Part shown: piece by piece, positions 7,478-62,614 of the stretch
Numbering within the stretch: the stretch's first letter is position 1
Layout of the letters: every line of letters starts with the position of its first letter
Assembly (NCBI GenBank): GCA_028712255.1
Contig: JAQTQJ010000003.1
Location: 71,173 to 135,172, forward strand
DNA: 64,000 bases
Direction: 5' to 3'
Origin: Candidatus Omnitrophota bacterium
GTDB lineage: Bacteria > Omnitrophota > Gorgyraeia > Gygaellales > Profunditerraquicolaceae
Made by a program: the position numbers and the translations under genes
Notes under the pieces: model-generated
What the model was told of the DNA's origin: nothing
What the model saw: the letters and a program-made list of their open reading frames with translations, nothing else
Database searches by the model: none

Positions 7478-7512
7478 GGGGGACGGTTCTCTTAAAAAAG
7501 AGAACCGTCCCC
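7478..7512 (+). terminator. hairpin repeat family (GGGGACGGTTCTCTT...AAGAGAACCGTCCCC) plus T-run in the pyrR leader; a terminator or attenuator candidate
   Basis: A perfect 14-bp inverted repeat followed by tttatttt, 10 nt before the pyrR ATG. A second hairpin (ccttggctaacaaagccagg) lies upstream at 7446-7464. Confidence 0.5.
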
Positions 7513-7522
7513 TTTATTTTAA

Positions 7523-8062
7523 ATGAAAGAAAAAGCTAAAATTCTGGATCAGGACGGAATTTCTCGTGCGATCATGCGTATTGCCCATGAGATTATTGAG
7601 AAGAACAAAGGGACAGCAGATTTATGCATCGTAGGTATCAGGAATCGGGGGGTTTATATCGCAGAACGTATTGCCGAATGCATTAAGAAAATTGAAGGGG
7701 CTGATATTCCATGTGGAGCTTTAGATATCACCCTTTACCGTGATGATCTGGCTTTGGCTAGCGGCCAGCCGCTAGTGCGTAAAACAGAGGTAGATTTCGA
7801 TATTAATGAAAAAAAATTGGTATTGGTTGATGATGTGCTTTATACCGGCCGTACAATCAGGGCGGCATTAGACGCATTGATTGATTTTGGCCGGCCCAAA
7901 TCCATACAGCTGGCGGTTTTAGTGGACCGGGGGCATCGCGAGTTGCCAATACGGGCGGATTTTGTAGGTAAGAATATCCCCACTTCTAGTAAAGAATCTG
8001 TGGAAGTACATTTGCAAGAGCCTGATGGCAGTGATGAAGTGTTAATTGCGGAGAAGGAATAA
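7523..8062 (+). CDS. pyrR: pyrimidine operon regulator / uracil phosphoribosyltransferase PyrR
   Basis: A 179 aa type-I PRTase fold ([12 protein letters not shown]) at the head of pyrB and pyrC. Confidence 0.9.
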
Positions 8063-59499: not shown

Positions 59500-62496
59500 G
59501 TGAATAAAATGAATAAAATTAAAAAACAAGAAATCGAAACAGGAATTCCTTCAAAGATAAAAAATGGCTGTTTTCTTTTAGTCAGCAGTCTATTGATAAT
59601 TTTGTCTATTGGGTTAGTTTCTGCTTTTGCTGATGTAACCCAGATTAAAGCACCTCTGTTTTGGTATGAAGGGGGATCAGGAGATTATGCTTTACCAAGG
59701 TTGGTAAATGCAGAGTATGACCTGTCCGGATTTGTGGCAACTGAAGGCCAGGTAAAAACTATTTGTGCAAATTATGATGCAGTTGGTGCGGTGGCAGTGG
59801 AAGTAAGTGCCGATAATGGTCTGCATTATTATTCAGTAACAAACGGCGTGCCTCTAACAGATAAATTTGTCAGCGGGGATCGGATTAAATGGCGCGCTAA
59901 AATTCTGGATGAAGATGCAAAACTTAATGCGCTCAGTATAACTTACACTGACAGCGCAGGAACCATTAGCAGTTTTGGGCATGAGGAGTTAAGTGGTTTT
60001 AATTATCGTAAAGAAATACTGTTGAAAAATCCTTCCGGTCAGGAGTTATTTAATTATCAGATAAAATTAAAAGTAGGGATAGATAAAAAAGTAGAAGGTG
60101 CTGATGTAAATTGCGAAGGAAATGTACGCCCGGATTTTCGGGATGTGCGTTTTACTGCTGCAGATGGGGAAACTCCATTATCCTATTATTTTGAAAACCA
60201 GATTGCTTCGTCGCCTGCGGCTTTTCGCAATGACACGGGTTCATTCTGGGTAAAAATCCCGCAGATTACCAGGGTTGGAGTAAAGATTTATATTTATTAC
60301 GGAAACAGTAATGCGGGCGATTTAAGCGATCCTAAAAATACATTTGATTTTTATGGTAGCTTTAAAAATACAAAACTCGACGCAAGCTCCTGGACAGTTA
60401 ATGCAGATCCCAAAGGAAGCTACGCTATAAAAGATGGGCAACTTAAATTGGATGCCGCCGAAATTATTGCAAAAGACTTCAAATTCGGACAAGGCATAAT
60501 TGAATATTCTGTTTCCGTTGAGAGTGGTTTTGAAAACAGCCTGAGTCTGCGGCCAAAATCTGGGGATCGTTATGATAGCCCGGGATTGGTGGCTTATTCA
60601 TCCGTCTATAAAGGAGCAGAGCATTGCATCGCTATAGACGATATTGTCAAGGCCAACGATGGCTTGGCCACTCCGATTACCGCCGGCGGAAAATATAATT
60701 ACCGGCTCACAGTCGATGGTAATGATATAACTTTTGAGCGTATGGATCAGCTAAATACAACTGTGCAGGCAAAAGTAACTTATAGTGATACATCTGCGAT
60801 GAAAGCCGGGTATCTGGGATTAAAATCCGGAGGTGACGGCAGCGGTAGGAATGTCATGGCCTATTCCGAAATCCGTGTGCGTAAATTTGTAAAAGCTCAA
60901 CCGCTTGTGAATAAAACCGGCGCGCTAGAACAAGTCCGCCTTCCTATTTTTTCAAATACCGCTCTCTCTAAAGAAGGCAACCTCATCCTATACGATAATA
61001 CTCAAGCAGGAACCTATATTACTAAAACAATTCCTGCGCCATTTAACGTGCGCATTATTGCTCCTGTTTACAAAGGAGCGAATCTGCAGGTAAATGTTTC
61101 GGCGGATAATGGGAAAAATTATAAAGAAGATTGCCTAAGCGGGAATTATTACTATAGTTCAATCAAAGATTTTATCGCTGGAGAAAATGTTGTTGCCAAA
61201 ATTAAATTAAATCCTGTCGATGTAAAAAAAGAAATTTCACAGTTAGAGGAAATAAAATTAAATTATAACCCCGGAGCGGTTTTAATGGTTAAGCCTAACG
61301 GCGCAGAAAAATTTAGTGCCGGCGCAACTGAGAAGATTTCGTGGTCGGCTTTAGATTATGATAACAAATACCCAATTAAATTAGAATATTCTCTGGATAG
61401 CGGAAAAAATTATAGTATAATAACGGATAATGTTAGTAATAGCGGATCATATTCATGGAAAGTCCCGCTTGATGCCAAAACTAAAACAGCATTAATCCGT
61501 GTCTCTGATAGTAATGATGAATCGATAAATGATGTATCGGATAATGTTTTTACCATACAGGATGCAGGATTAGCTGCAGAAGAACCAGCCGAAGAAACAG
61601 CGCAGGTAGCAGAGGAAACCAAGGATGAAGAAACAGCGCAGAAACAAACAAAGTCCGAACTTAATGATTTGGATAAAGATTACGTGATTGATAAAAACAT
61701 AACTATCTCTACTGATTCGGATATCGCTTTTAAAACTCTAACCTTGGGTGATGGAAAAGGAGCGCATATTTCAAAAATTATCTTGAATAATAATATCAAC
61801 CCTAACTCCGGGAAAATAATTATTCGTAATGGCGGACAACTGATTCAGGCAAATAATGATGCGCAGGCAATTTCAGGAGATTTAATTATTGAACAAGGCG
61901 GTATCCTTACGCATATGGAAAATAAAACAGATAAAAAATATCAATTGGATTTAACTGCCCAGAATATTACTTTGAAATCAGGGGCAATTGTCAGCGCTTA
62001 TGCCAAAGGTTACAGCGGAGGAGAGGCGCAACAGGCAGGCGCAGGCAAGGCCGCGGGCGTATATATAGGTAAGCAAGCAAGAGGCGGCAAGCATACATAT
62101 GATACTGAAAAGGCGCCTAATGAGTTGGGTTCAGGAGGAGCAGGCAGCTTATTAGCTAAAGGCGGCGCAGGCGGGGGGACAATCAGATTAATTGCTAAAC
62201 AAGAATTTTCTTTAAGCGGAATAATTAATGCCGATGGTAAAGCCGGAGCAGTTGCTTCTGATAATATTTATAATGCTGCCGGCGGCGCAGGAGGCAGTAT
62301 ATATTTAGAAGCAAGTAAATTTTCCGGAAGCGGCGCCAAAATTACAGCCTCCGGAGGTTCGGGGAACAAGACCGCAGGCGCAGGTGGCGGCGGACGTATT
62401 AATATTAAAGCTCCTGCTGGAAAAATCAGCGGTACGATTAACGCTAACGGCGGGAGTGGACTGAATACTGAAGCAGGGAGTGTAATTATAGAGTAG
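59500..62496 (+). CDS. large secreted/surface protein (DUF2341-like N-terminal region, Gly-rich beta-helix-like C-terminus) with an in-frame half copy of the palindromic element
   Basis: Signal/TM N-terminus, FRDVRFTAADGETPLSYYFE (DUF2341-like), and C-terminal GGAGGG repeats. Nt 60201-60236 (IASSPAAFRNDT) is a repeat fragment. Confidence 0.55.
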   Translation: MNKMNKIKKQEIETGIPSKIKNGCFLLVSSLLIILSIGLVSAFADVTQIKAPLFWYEGGSGDYALPRLVNAEYDLSGFVATEGQVKTICANYDAVGAVAVEVSADNGLHYYSVTNGVPLTDKFVSGDRIKWRAKILDEDAKLNALSITYTDSAGTISSFGHEELSGFNYRKEILLKNPSGQELFNYQIKLKVGIDKKVEGADVNCEGNVRPDFRDVRFTAADGETPLSYYFENQIASSPAAFRNDTGSFWVKIPQITRVGVKIYIYYGNSNAGDLSDPKNTFDFYGSFKNTKLDASSWTVNADPKGSYAIKDGQLKLDAAEIIAKDFKFGQGIIEYSVSVESGFENSLSLRPKSGDRYDSPGLVAYSSVYKGAEHCIAIDDIVKANDGLATPITAGGKYNYRLTVDGNDITFERMDQLNTTVQAKVTYSDTSAMKAGYLGLKSGGDGSGRNVMAYSEIRVRKFVKAQPLVNKTGALEQVRLPIFSNTALSKEGNLILYDNTQAGTYITKTIPAPFNVRIIAPVYKGANLQVNVSADNGKNYKEDCLSGNYYYSSIKDFIAGENVVAKIKLNPVDVKKEISQLEEIKLNYNPGAVLMVKPNGAEKFSAGATEKISWSALDYDNKYPIKLEYSLDSGKNYSIITDNVSNSGSYSWKVPLDAKTKTALIRVSDSNDESINDVSDNVFTIQDAGLAAEEPAEETAQVAEETKDEETAQKQTKSELNDLDKDYVIDKNITISTDSDIAFKTLTLGDGKGAHISKIILNNNINPNSGKIIIRNGGQLIQANNDAQAISGDLIIEQGGILTHMENKTDKKYQLDLTAQNITLKSGAIVSAYAKGYSGGEAQQAGAGKAAGVYIGKQARGGKHTYDTEKAPNELGSGGAGSLLAKGGAGGGTIRLIAKQEFSLSGIINADGKAGAVASDNIYNAAGGAGGSIYLEASKFSGSGAKITASGGSGNKTAGAGGGGRINIKAPAGKISGTINANGGSGLNTEAGSVIIE

Positions 62497-62580
62497 ATTA
62501 GATCCTAGGTTATAAGTGCTATAAAATAGGAGATAAGAATGGAAGTAAAAACAAGAAGTTATAAAGATAGATTAAATAAA

Positions 62581-62614
62581 GGGGACGGTTCTGTTAAAAA
62601 TAGAACCGTCCCCT
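62581..62614 (+). terminator. hairpin repeat family copy (ggggacggttctgtt aaaaa tagaaccgtcccc) followed by a T-run
   Basis: Lies directly after the 998 aa ORF, with outer arms aataaagggg...cccctttatt. Confidence 0.6.

What the first reader, a model, noticed from the sequence alone, without database searches (positions are those of the whole stretch)
7478..62614. A single, highly conserved 16-bp-arm hairpin (GGGGACGGTTCTCTT / AAGAGAACCGTCCCC) reused at nine sites
Near-identical perfect inverted repeats occur at 7478, 21513, 23965, 26448, 28805 (variant), 47913 and 62581. There are half copies at 37867 and 40401. Most sit right after a stop codon and before a T-run, so they are terminator-like. 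The 47913 copy lies between divergently transcribed genes, and the 7478 copy sits inside the pyrR leader. Independent intrinsic terminators do not normally share sequence. Conservation of the stem sequence suggests a mobile terminator cassette, a protein-binding site or an uptake-signal-like function.
Basis: seen in the sequence. Interest (0 to 1): 0.55.

Follow-up and report, generated by a model that had tools for sequence, protein, structure and literature searches.

The report
Transposase-linked palindromic repeat family (REPIN-like)
The reused hairpin is a small, probably mobile palindromic repeat whose 12-base core (GGGGACGGTTCT) also flanks a family of IS200-like "Y1" transposase genes in many bacterial phyla, so it is a REP/REPIN-type element and not a set of ordinary terminators.

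Summary
Nine intergenic sites in this Candidatus Omnitrophota window carry the hairpin: six intact, one sequence variant, one decayed and one split by a nested repeat. That gives 16 arm matches against 0.94 expected.

The arms are not specific to this genome. The pair GGGGACGGTTCT…AGAACCGTCCCC occurs in at least 120 genome stretches from about eight phyla.

In other genomes the same box flanks a roughly 250-aa Y1/HUH transposase with a C-terminal HTH, with the box on the + strand upstream and the − strand downstream:
- Four loci examined one by one all show this, as does one cultured isolate's complete replicon.
- Of 80 loci chosen only by the protein, 38 have the box on both sides and 13 on one side.
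- A search with no prior motif finds box tiles as the top 8-mers shared in inverted orientation.

The protein's best structural match is 4ER8, the E. coli REP transposase. It fits the published TIRYT / RAYT Group 1 / subclass 2.1 class, whose inverted repeats share GGGGWSAS.

The window hairpins have the same polarity as box–gene–box with the gene missing. Three close relatives with the same gene order have no box. Where the window has a 78-nt spacer with a hairpin between atpB and atpD, two relatives have 4 nt or an overlap.

No cognate transposase lies in the window. Terminator activity is plausible but untested.

The parts
7478..7513 (.). Intact box pair (GGGGACGGTTCTCTT-AAAA-AAGAGAACCGTCCCC). 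It ends 10 nt upstream of the pyrR-like ORF (7523-8062) and follows a separate small hairpin at 7443-7466.
   Evidence: (-30.3 kcal/mol)
21513..21566 (.). Intact box pair with 20-nt arms and a 14-nt loop. It lies in the 78-nt spacer between V-ATPase B (stop at 21500) and D (start at 21579). It is absent at the same junction in relatives L205, L206 and L207.
   Evidence: (-33.2 kcal/mol)
23966..24001 (.). Box pair in which both arms carry the same derived sequence (GGACACGGTTCTCTT / AAGAGAACCGTGTCC). It lies between V-ATPase I and the c subunit. Relatives have no box here.
   Evidence: (-28.9 kcal/mol)
26438..26494 (.). Intact box pair. The palindrome extends into the flanks (AAATCAA…TTGATT) and its left flank overlaps the stop codon of the 504-aa gene. 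The next gene (tRNA_bind) starts at 26507. Relatives have no box here.
   Evidence: 26-nt arms, 92%; -38.3 kcal/mol
28799..28858 (.). Variant subfamily copy (GGGACCGTTTCTATTTTTTGTTT / its reverse complement), 5 nt after the stop of an RNase_T-domain gene.
   Evidence: 31-nt arms, 94%; -34 kcal/mol
37868..37893 (.). Decayed copy. The left box is intact (GGGGACGGTTCTATTTTT) and the right arm is reduced to CCGTCACC. An unrelated GTCATTGCGAG-type repeat pair follows at 37916-38002.
   Evidence: (-10.8 kcal/mol, z -1.9)
40403..40503 (.). Box pair split by a nested insertion. The left arm is 40403-40420 and the diverged right arm is 40486-40503. They enclose a GTCATTCCCACGAAAGTGGGAATC…GATCCCCGC…GCGGGGATGAC repeat.
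   Evidence: (-54.5 kcal/mol for the whole)
47906..47955 (.). Intact box pair with perfect 23-nt arms, between the divergent genes 46313-~47860 (- strand, Mg-chelatase/ComM-like) and 48006-48584 (+ strand).
   Evidence: -40.1 kcal/mol
62574..62620 (.). Intact box pair (arms GGGGACGGTTCTGTT / AATAGAACCGTCCCC, 22-nt arms at 95%), 84 nt after the stop of the 998-aa gene.
   Evidence: -33.3 kcal/mol

Best explanation
The hairpins are gene-less, miniature copies of a Y1-transposase element. They are comparable to REPINs or MITEs.

**The full element, as seen in other genomes.** It is a ~250-aa IS200-like HUH/Y1 transposase gene with a C-terminal helix-turn-helix. The gene is bracketed by the box GGGGACGGTTCT on the coding strand upstream and by its reverse complement downstream.

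**The window version.** Each hairpin is the two ends joined head to head (box, short loop, reverse-complement box, with the GGGG ends outward) plus genome-specific A/T-rich flanks.

**Shown here.**
- The box-transposase association and its fixed polarity.
- The variable-stem, conserved-box anatomy of single units.
- The intergenic, after-stop placement.
- The absence of the hairpins at the same junctions in close relatives.

**Inferred.**
- The transposase, acting in trans, recognises the box. This could be through the HTH on duplex DNA or through the catalytic domain on folded single-stranded DNA.
- It then cuts and rejoins single strands to copy or move the pairs, as shown for IS608 TnpA and, for cleavage, E. 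coli TnpA-REP.
- Once inserted behind genes, the -30 to -40 kcal/mol RNA hairpins may secondarily stabilise 3' ends, or attenuate or terminate transcription.
For: They come from Bacillota (Clostridia and Bacilli, including cultured isolates), Bacteroidota, Actinomycetota, Omnitrophota (7 loci), Elusimicrobiota, Aminicenantes, Planctomycetales and a deltaproteobacterium.
2. **Gene association at individual loci.** Boxes bracket a PF01797 Y1_Tnp gene in L014 and L063, in L121 (Butyrivibrio proteoclasticus) and L123, and in the Acetoanaerobium noterae DSL2 replicon.
3. **Gene association in loci chosen only by the protein.** Of 80 metagenome loci, 38 have the core GGGACGGTTC (up to 1 mismatch) within 400 nt on both sides and 13 on one side. 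It is almost always + upstream and - downstream. My estimate of the chance rate is about 0.01 per flank. About ten of the rest have variant boxes such as GGGGACGGGGTT.
4. **Unbiased test.** The 8-mers most often shared in inverted orientation by the two flanks are all tiles of GGGGACGGTTCT, in 23-28 of 71 loci. The best 8-mers not containing GACGG reach only 5-7 loci.
5. **Polarity.** Adjacent inverted box pairs are +- 17 times and -+ once in the protein-ascertained loci. This matches the window hairpins.
6. **Unit anatomy.** The box lies between short inverted repeats whose sequence differs between genomes. Perfect stems of at least 5 bp occur in 51% of units against 4% of shuffles, and stems of at least 7 bp in 28% against 0% (DNA folds).
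7. **The enzyme.**
   - Its HUH motif is NHVH, its tyrosine motif is Y[IV]xxNP, and its C-terminus has a conserved GLTxRQIERLTG HTH.
   - The AlphaFold model (pLDDT 83) has 4ER8, the REP-associated tyrosine transposase on a REP hairpin, as its best PDB match.
   - The family is large, with 866 clusters (50% identity) at E ≤ 1e-30.
   - These features match subclass 2.1 / TIRYT, whose inverted repeats share GGGGWSAS (PMC6006769; PMC3733652).
8. **Insertion-like polymorphism.**
   - Syntenic loci from Omnitrophota with 94, 90 and 88% identical AtpA contain no box in about 22 kb each.
   - The atpB-atpD junction is 4 nt, 41 nt or overlapping there, against 78 nt with a hairpin in the window.
9. 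**Placement.** Of 135 pairs in 120 genome loci, 29% have their centre inside a mechanical ORF of at least 120 aa, against 83% of random positions. 49% lie within 30 nt after a stop codon.
Against: - No long Y1 gene lies in the 64-kb window. I could not obtain one from any Omnitrophota genome, so the link for this organism rests on analogy.
- The window's only Y1 gene (45675-46163) is a canonical RAYT flanked by a different, GTAG-type repeat.
- No target-site duplication or insertion footprint could be read, because the flanks are too diverged from the relatives.
- In the window the single-unit stem is only about 3-4 A/T-rich pairs, so the anatomy differs from the best-defined units.
- In A. 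noterae the boxes cluster near the transposase gene (18 in 40 kb) and are nearly absent from two distant 50-kb samples. The density in the window therefore cannot be extrapolated to the whole genome.
- I found no biochemical data for this transposase subclass in the papers searched.
- 21 of the 80 protein-ascertained loci show no canonical box.
- Most of the non-Bacillota and non-Actinomycetota genomes are MAGs.
Confidence: 0.8

Rival explanations
1. The hairpins are ordinary intrinsic (possibly bidirectional) terminators. They spread or converged because the stem works well, with no transposase involved.
For: - Six copies begin 5-12 nt after a stop codon.
- The stems are very stable.
- Several copies have an A-rich 5' flank and a T-rich 3' flank, as bidirectional terminators do.
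- In the region 20001-40000, two of the five copies are flagged by the consensus scan.
Against: - The same 12-mer brackets Y1-transposase genes in many phyla, with fixed polarity.
- Close relatives lack the hairpins at the same junctions.
- One copy sits between atpB and atpD, which overlap or are 4 nt apart in two relatives, and has the tail CAGAUUCU.
- One copy is in a divergent promoter region.
- Stabilities of -30 to -40 kcal/mol and 15-23-bp stems exceed usual terminators.
- Boxes also occur in one-orientation tandem arrays (L014, L074), which cannot be hairpin terminators.
Confidence: 0.05
2. The elements are real REP-type repeats, but in this genome they are handled by the canonical RAYT encoded in the window (45675-46163), not by a long TIRYT-type enzyme.
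For: - A RAYT (NF047646, 126.8 bits) lies in the window, 1.7 kb from the 47914 copy.
- Its flanking repeat GTAG-GGGACG-TTTAAA-CGTCCC-CTAC shares GGGGACG/CGTCCCC with the foot of the hairpin stem.
- It is 35% identical to the catalytic domain of one box-associated enzyme (L190).
Against: - The hairpins lack the GT[AG]G foot that defines canonical RAYT substrates.
- The RAYT's own flanks are a distinct family with other copies in the window (24875-24900, 59345-59388).
- Other copies of that family read GTAGGGGAT…, so the shared 7-mer is not a family feature.
- In every case examined, the box travels with the long HTH-bearing enzyme.
Confidence: 0.08
3. The box is a binding site for a domesticated host factor, and the hairpins are maintained for a host function such as nucleoid organisation, replication-fork handling or mRNA 3'-end protection. 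In this reading they are not actively transposing selfish DNA.
For: [quoted passage not shown]
- The HTH and the 12-bp box are both highly conserved.
- Placement behind genes is non-random.
Against: - Close relatives do without the elements and carry a different repeat family at some of the same junctions.
- Copies decay (37868) and are interrupted by other repeats (40403-40503).
- In A. noterae the copies cluster around the gene instead of being spread for a genome-wide function.
- This reading overlaps with the best explanation and does not exclude it.
Confidence: 0.07
4. The hairpins are inverted pairs of a DNA uptake signal, as in Neisseria or Pasteurellaceae.
For: Inverted DUS/USS pairs behind genes are a known arrangement (general knowledge). 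A ComM-like gene happens to lie next to one copy.
Against: - Uptake signals are lineage-specific (general knowledge), whereas this 12-mer is identical in about eight phyla.
- The box avoids coding sequence: 29% of pairs have their centre in a long ORF against 83% of random positions.
- It is physically tied to a transposase gene.
- Close relatives lack it entirely.
Confidence: 0.01

Closest known systems
TIRtrons / TIRYT-associated TIR repeat families (Di Nocera et al. 2013, PMC3733652). The enzyme corresponds to TnpA-Y1 subclass 2.1 (Quentin et al. 2018, PMC6006769) and RAYT Group 1 (Bertels et al. 2017, PMC5581495).
   Same: - The Y1/HUH enzyme is about 240-260 aa, with an NHVH motif, a Y…NP motif and a C-terminal HTH.
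- The gene is bracketed by inverted repeats that begin GGGGAC (published motif GGGGWSAS).
- The repeats also occur away from the gene as dimers and clusters.
- The published distribution is wide and patchy, and includes Clostridia.
   Different: - The box here, GGGGACGG, matches GGGGWSAS at 7 of 8 positions, and 12 nt are conserved instead of 8.
- The 2013 paper does not mention Firmicutes or Clostridia, and I found no published Omnitrophota example.
- The published families were called only moderately abundant, and Quentin et al. found no REP-like sequences next to subclass 2.1 genes.
- Here single units fold as variable stems around the conserved box.
- The window shows a very compact form: two boxes separated by 3-14 nt.
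REP / REPIN-RAYT systems (E. coli, Pseudomonas; structure 4ER8)
   Same: - Short intergenic palindromes, often as inverted doublets that form long hairpins.
- They flank a single-copy Y1 transposase gene in inverted orientation (a REPtron).
- They are placed mostly behind genes.
- They show lineage-specific presence and co-resident families.
- The enzyme's best structural match is the REP transposase.
   Different: - There is no GT[AG]G tetranucleotide at the hairpin foot.
- The conserved part is a 12-nt box shared across phyla. In canonical REPs it is a species-specific stem.
- The enzyme scores below the NCBIfam REP_Tyr_transpos cut-off (54-70 bits against 80) and carries an extra HTH domain.
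[quoted passage not shown]
   Same: The element consists of two transposon ends with the gene deleted, is non-autonomous, occurs in multiple copies, and nests with other repeats.
   Different: - No target-site duplication was seen.
- The parent enzyme is a single-strand HUH transposase, not a DDE enzyme.
- The elements are only 34-57 bp long.
Rho-independent (bidirectional) terminators
   Same: A GC-rich stem directly after stop codons, with an A-rich 5' flank and a T-rich 3' flank in several copies.
   Different: - The stem sequence is shared across loci and phyla.
- Stem length and stability are much greater.
- Copies occur inside an operon and in a divergent promoter region.
- There is a link to a transposase gene.

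Membership tests
TIRYT / TIRtron repeat family (subclass 2.1 Y1 transposase with its inverted repeats) | The repeat brackets a Y1/HUH transposase gene in inverted orientation. | tested here: met
   Met in other genomes only. L014, L063, L121, L123 and A. noterae show it. Of 80 protein-ascertained loci, 38 have the box on both sides and 13 on one side. The unbiased 8-mer test agrees. It was not found in the window itself.
TIRYT / TIRtron repeat family (subclass 2.1 Y1 transposase with its inverted repeats) | The enzyme has subclass 2.1 features: about 238 aa, HUH = NHVH, a Y…NP motif, and a C-terminal HTH (HTH_23/HTH_28/DnaA_C-like). | tested here: met
   Length is 245-263 aa. NHVH is invariant. 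The tyrosine motif reads Y[IV]xxNP. The C-terminus is a conserved GLTxRQIERLTG, with weak HTH_23/HTH_28/HTH_38 hits. The fold matches 4ER8 and IS608 TnpA. No joint phylogeny with the published members was made.
TIRYT / TIRtron repeat family (subclass 2.1 Y1 transposase with its inverted repeats) | The inverted repeats contain the motif GGGGWSAS. | tested here: inconclusive
   GGGGACGG matches 7 of 8 positions (G instead of A at position 7). Variant boxes at other loci (GGGGGACAGGT, GGGACAGTCCCC) lie closer to the published motif. The published sequences are in a figure that I could not read.
TIRYT / TIRtron repeat family (subclass 2.1 Y1 transposase with its inverted repeats) | The repeats also occur dispersed, as singles, dimers or clusters. 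| tested here: met
   The window has nine sites. Doublets and tandem arrays occur in many loci. A. noterae has 18 copies in 40 kb.
Canonical REP / REPIN-RAYT | A conserved 5' GT[AG]G tetranucleotide at the foot of the hairpin. | tested here: not met
   The bases before the stem are AAG, ATG, CGG or CAA. By contrast, the window's own RAYT is flanked by genuine GTAG repeats.
Canonical REP / REPIN-RAYT | Inverted doublets of a short palindromic unit that form a long hairpin, in many copies and in extragenic positions. | tested here: met
Canonical REP / REPIN-RAYT | The associated enzyme passes the curated RAYT model. | tested here: not met
   The long Y1 proteins score 69.8 and 54.0 bits against NF047646, whose cut-off is 80.
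Intrinsic terminator | A stem-loop followed by an unpaired U-tract at the end of a transcription unit. | tested here: inconclusive
   Tails have 3-7 T in 8 and are partly paired with the 5' flank. In 20001-40000 the consensus scan flags two of the five copies, almost entirely on the - strand. One copy is inside an operon and one lies in a divergent promoter region. No transcript data were available.
DNA uptake sequence | A lineage-specific short motif that is over-represented genome-wide, including inside genes. | tested here: not met
   The identical box occurs in about eight phyla. It is absent from close relatives and depleted in ORFs.
MITE | Terminal inverted repeats plus a target-site duplication. 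| tested here: inconclusive
   Inverted ends are present. No direct repeat flanks the copies, and the flanks themselves are palindromic. The empty sites in relatives are too diverged to align.

The most novel reading that the evidence does not exclude
One 12-nt box, GGGGACGGTTCT, and the HTH-bearing Y1 transposases of the largest RAYT group (Group 1 / subclass 2.1 / TIRYT) may form a single REPIN-like system shared by at least eight bacterial phyla. This group was reported to lack REPs. Here the enzyme's cognate repeat is a conserved box held between genome-specific stems, which is the opposite of canonical REPs (a conserved foot with a species-specific stem). If so, recognition of the box, perhaps by the HTH, has been conserved while the system spread across phyla.
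Probability: 0.5. Interest if true: 0.6.

Novelty: new member of a known kind. Interest (0 to 1): 0.45.

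Why it matters
- **For annotation.** These hairpins should be masked or labelled as REP-type repeats, not called as terminators or leader elements. They also explain assembly breaks: many contigs carrying the transposase gene are only about 1 kb long.
- **For the field.**
  - The data give the largest and least understood RAYT group a concrete, testable DNA partner.
  - That partner is a 12-nt box found from rumen Clostridia to groundwater Omnitrophota. The 2018 survey found no REPs for this group, and the 2013 survey saw only a loose 8-nt motif.
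  - This makes binding, cleavage and mobility experiments straightforward to design.
- **For this genome.** The window carries at least three co-resident palindromic repeat families, so Omnitrophota may be a useful lineage for studying turnover of such elements.

Tried and rejected
- **Rfam.** A search of the window and of 18 box-rich loci found only tRNAs, so the hairpin is not a described RNA family.
- **Literature search by sequence.** Only chance primer matches came up. Searches for TIRYT, RAYT, REPIN and TnpA-REP found no description of this box.
- **Neighbour-gene clustering.** All-against-all clustering of ORFs in the 120 hairpin loci found no enriched neighbouring gene. The elements are dispersed, and the gene link appeared only when box-bracketed ORFs were examined.
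- **CGTC-tagged REP idea.** The reverse-complement box contains CGTC. I rejected this because CGTC REPs have a different anatomy (CGTC head, stem, 4-5 nt loop, CCA tail) and no transposase. The window's GTCATTGCGAG repeats look like that class instead.
- **Phage or plasmid carriage.** Only 6 hairpin stretches and 4 gene loci turned up in 2.9 million viral contigs. Only 12 of 72,556 plasmid records hold a relative of the gene.
- **Extending the window or finding its contig.** One 2.5-kb Logan contig matched, and two look-ups found nothing.
- **Searching for the long Y1 gene.** I searched the window and the Omnitrophota loci with 29 diverse queries. Only the canonical RAYT came up.
- **PyrR-leader reading of the 7478 copy.** No PyrR element was found by Rfam.
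- **Box-variant versus protein-clade co-evolution.** The signal is weak: 45-50% identity within a variant against 38-41% between variants (script partly failed).
- **Not pursued.** From memory, I compared the box with conserved RNAs (tmRNA 5' end, SRP RNA, rRNA). I saw no convincing match and did not follow it up.

Full report
**1. The observation**

A search for GGGGACGGTTCTCTT with up to three mismatches gives 16 matches in the 64-kb window. Shuffles give 0.94 ± 0.94, and none of 100 shuffles reaches 16.

The matches resolve into nine sites.
- **Six intact inverted pairs:** 7478-7513, 21513-21566, 23966-24001, 26449-26483, 47914-47947 and 62581-62613.
- **One variant:** 28805-28852 (GGGACCGTTTCTATT…).
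- **One decayed copy:** 37868-37893.
- **One split copy:** 40403-40503. Its two arms are separated by an unrelated nested palindromic repeat.

In several copies the palindrome continues into the flanks (AAATCAA…TTGATT), giving arms of up to 23-26 nt. As RNA the intact copies fold at -29 to -40 kcal/mol, with z-scores of -7.7 to -9.9.

All nine sites are intergenic.
- Six begin 5-12 nt after a stop codon.
- One lies between divergent genes.
- One ends 10 nt before a pyrR-like ORF.

Rfam finds only four tRNAs in the window, and no PyrR element.

**2. The stem sequence is not private to this genome**

The exact pattern GGGGACGGTTCT-N6-36-AGAACCGTCCCC was scanned against one genome per GTDB species.

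The record titles name these groups:
- Bacillota, both Clostridia and Bacilli, including cultured Butyrivibrio, Oribacterium, Maledivibacter, Neobacillus and Rossellomorea
- Actinomycetota, including Micropruina glycogenica JCM 10248
- Bacteroidota
- Omnitrophota (seven loci)
- Elusimicrobiota
- Aminicenantes
- Planctomycetales
- a deltaproteobacterium

Across these genomes the 12-nt box is constant. The sequence on either side of it differs between genomes but is uniform within a genome. Boxes occur as inverted pairs, as singles, and as tandem arrays with periods from about 20 to 42 nt that may switch orientation midway.

No Rfam family matches box-rich loci. No paper in the library contains the sequence.

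**3. The link to a gene**

Clustering all ORFs of the 120 loci showed no enriched neighbour.

I then looked at ORFs bracketed by boxes. In L014 (Clostridiales UBA3678) a 258-aa ORF lies between six + boxes and four - boxes. In L063 (Oribacterium NK2B42) a 263-aa ORF lies between two hairpins. Both ORFs are PF01797 Y1_Tnp proteins, and they are 48% identical over the catalytic domain.

The family is large.
- 1554 homologues of about 245-260 aa were found, named 'transposase' or 'REP element-mobilizing transposase RayT' by their sources.
- 866 clusters at 50% identity score E ≤ 1e-30 in the representative library.

Two further members looked up in their contigs show the box on the + strand upstream and the - strand downstream (L121, Butyrivibrio proteoclasticus, and L123). 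The same holds for the complete replicon of the isolate Acetoanaerobium noterae DSL2.

A scan of metagenome contigs chosen only by the protein gave 80 loci. Within 400 nt of the gene, the core GGGACGGTTC (up to 1 mismatch) was distributed as follows.

| Box position | Loci |
|---|---|
| Both sides | 38 |
| One side (several on truncated contigs) | 13 |
| Neither side, both flanks long enough to judge | 21 |
| Not seen, but at least one flank too short to judge | 8 |

The orientation is almost always + upstream and - downstream. About ten of the loci with no canonical box carry related inverted boxes such as GGGGACGGGGTT, GGGGGACAGGT or GGGACAGTCCCC.

A test with no prior motif gave the same answer. 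The 8-mers most often shared in inverted orientation between the two flanks are all tiles of GGGGACGGTTCT, in 23-28 of 71 loci. The best 8-mers not containing GACGG reach only 5-7 loci.

Adjacent inverted box pairs in these loci are +- 17 times and -+ once. This is the polarity of the window hairpins. Each hairpin is therefore 'left end plus right end' of the gene-bearing unit with the gene missing.

**4. Anatomy of the unit**

Next to the genes, a single box usually sits between short inverted repeats whose sequence varies from genome to genome. One example is GGAGACA-GGGGACGGTTCTC-TGTCTCC.

| Perfect flanking stem | Observed (n = 182) | Shuffled flanks |
|---|---|---|
| At least 5 bp | 51% | 4% |
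| At least 7 bp | 28% | 0% |

These figures come, and DNA folds are. The unit is thus a variable stem holding a conserved box. Canonical REPs are the reverse: a conserved GT[AG]G foot under a species-specific stem.

In the window, and in other Omnitrophota, the unit stem is only a few A/T pairs. The box-to-box doublet helix dominates there.

**5. The enzyme**

- The alignment shows an invariant NHVH motif, a Y[IV]xxNP motif, and a conserved C-terminal GLTxRQIERLTGIxRN segment. That segment has weak HTH_23/HTH_28/HTH_38 matches.
- Some annotated proteins run into the box and end in …KENRPH or …EPSP.
- An AlphaFold model (mean pLDDT 83) matches 4ER8 best, followed by the IS608, ISDra2 and IS200 transposases. 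4ER8 is the E. coli REP-associated tyrosine transposase on a REP hairpin.
- The proteins score below the curated cut-off of the NCBIfam RAYT model: 54-70 bits against 80.

**6. What is already known**

These features match three published descriptions of what appears to be one class.
- **TnpA-Y1 subclass 2.1 (Quentin et al. 2018).** Median length 238 aa, NHVH, C-terminal HTH. [quoted passage not shown]
- **RAYT Group 1 (Bertels et al. 2017).** The largest group, found in 21 bacterial classes including Clostridia. Flanking 16-mers occur only about 12 times per replicon.
- **TIRYT (Di Nocera et al. 2013).** The genes lie in 'TIRtrons' bracketed by inverted repeats sharing GGGGWSAS. Some of these repeats form moderately abundant families arranged in dimers or clusters.

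The box GGGGACGG fits the GGGGWSAS motif at 7 of 8 positions.

I therefore file the window hairpins as a new member of this known kind. What I did not find described:
- the 12-nt conservation across phyla
- the variable-stem unit
- any Omnitrophota or Bacillota example beyond Bertels et al.'s note that Group 1 occurs in Clostridia

**7. Evidence on mobility in this lineage**

The window's V-ATPase A subunit is 90% identical to that of Candidatus Omnitrophica CG11, and all named best hits are Omnitrophota. I fetched four loci from relatives.

| Locus | AtpA identity to window | Length examined | Box found | atpB-atpD junction |
|---|---|---|---|---|
| Window | - | - | hairpins at 21513, 23966, 26449 | 78 nt, with hairpin |
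| L205 | 94% | ~22 kb | none | 4 nt |
| L206 | 90% | ~22 kb | none | 41 nt, no box |
| L207 | 88% | ~22 kb | none | overlap |
| L208 | 87% | 12 kb | none | not covered |

L205, L206 and L207 keep the window's gene order. At other junctions the relatives carry a different repeat (CACCCGACGCCAATAGGTATTGCGTCGGTG…).

The hairpins are therefore lineage-specific additions, not conserved terminators. Decay (37868) and nesting (40403-40503) fit a turnover picture.

**8. Placement and the terminator question**

Across 135 pairs in 120 genome loci:
- 29% have their centre inside a mechanical ORF of at least 120 aa, against 83% of random positions
- 49% lie within 30 nt after a stop codon

This pattern is typical of REPs.

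A consensus terminator scan of 20001-40000 flags two of the five copies there, almost entirely on the antisense strand. The 3' tails vary from TTTATTTT to CAGATTCT, and they often pair with the A-rich 5' flank.

A secondary role as a bidirectional terminator, attenuator or 3'-end stabiliser is plausible. I could not test it.

**9. Limits**

- No long Y1 gene lies in the window. Attempts to extend the window failed.
- The window does hold a canonical RAYT (45675-46163; NF047646, 126.8 bits). It is flanked by its own GTAG-type repeats, so it is a less likely partner for the box hairpins.
- In A. noterae the boxes cluster around the gene: 18 in 40 kb, against 1 and 0 in two distant 50-kb samples. 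The density seen in the window may be local, and the cognate gene may lie nearby.
- Carriage on viral contigs and plasmids is rare, so I could not identify the route of spread between phyla.
- Many of the non-Bacillota and non-Actinomycetota records are MAGs.
- The genome scan was truncated, and it selected for +- pairs by design.

**10. Verdict**

The best explanation is a non-autonomous REPIN/MITE-like repeat belonging to the TIRYT (Y1 transposase) system, with confidence of about 0.8.

This is a new member of a known kind. The cross-phylum box is a moderately interesting and directly testable lead.

Noticed in passing
window 45625-46205: A complete canonical REPtron. The 162-aa RAYT at 45675-46163 (- strand; NF047646, 126.8 bits) is flanked by GTAG 'double-foot' repeats. 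These are GTTATCCACAGAGTAGGGGATATTTAAATGGTACCTAC… at 45625-45676 and GTTATCCACAGGGTAGGGGACGTTTAAACGTCCCCTAC at 46165-46205. Further copies of this repeat lie at 24875-24900 and 59345-59388.
   Followed up: partly
window 14838-14918, 37916-38002, 38760-38830, 44469-44546, 58086-58137: A third repeat family forms inverted doublets: GTGTCATTGCGAG…CGAAGCAATC…GATTGCTTCG…CTCGCAATGACAC. It resembles the transposase-less 'CGTC-tagged' REPs of Di Nocera et al. 2013. A related GTCATTCCCACGAAAGTGGGAATC unit is nested inside the box pair at 40428-40482.
   Followed up: partly
window 40820-40915 (inside ORF 40524-41957): A copy of the GTCATT…CGAAGCAATC doublet lies in frame inside a Mur-ligase-family gene. 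It encodes …VSFPGVLAAKQSKKRDCFVRHRINVGLAMTQ…, upstream of the matched Mur_ligase_M domain. This looks like an intragenic REP insertion. A half copy also lies inside the 998-aa ORF at 60201-60234.
   Followed up: partly
L205 15485-15585; L206 11730-11815; L207 11735-11815, 15510-15610, 17905-18080: Close Omnitrophota relatives lack the box. At some of the same intergenic junctions they carry a different GC-rich repeat (…CACCCGACGCCAATAGGTATTGCGTCGGTGTGCGC…GTGTGCCC.TGTGGGC…), sometimes in tandem. Repeat families appear to replace one another between close lineages.
   Followed up: no
window 51388-51430 and 57150-57223: Another pair of related palindromes, built from GAAACAGTTTC and TTTCCCGATTA. 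They are unrelated to the box, and no function was assessed.
   Followed up: no
window 7443-7466: A separate small hairpin (CCCTTGGCTAACAAAGCCAGGGG followed by TATTTTAT) sits just upstream of the 7478 box pair. It looks more like a conventional terminator for the preceding methylase-family gene than the box pair does.
   Followed up: no
proteins P0001-P0120; P0048, P0062, P0107: Many contigs carrying the long Y1 gene are only about 1 kb long, so assemblies appear to break at the flanking repeats. Some gene calls run through the downstream box, giving artefactual C-terminal tails such as …KENRPH or …EPSP.
   Followed up: no
NZ_CP154629.1 (L219-L221): The PLSDB record 'Acetoanaerobium noterae DSL2 plasmid pTPELB2' is 2.63 Mb with only four annotated features. 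It is chromosome-sized and probably mislabelled as a plasmid. Its box copies are concentrated around the Y1 gene.
   Followed up: partly
window 28805-28852; L172, L173, L177, L182: The window variant box GGGACCGTTTCT resembles the GGGACGTTTC variant that flanks a subset of Y1 genes in metagenome loci. This hints at a second subfamily with its own enzyme.
   Followed up: no
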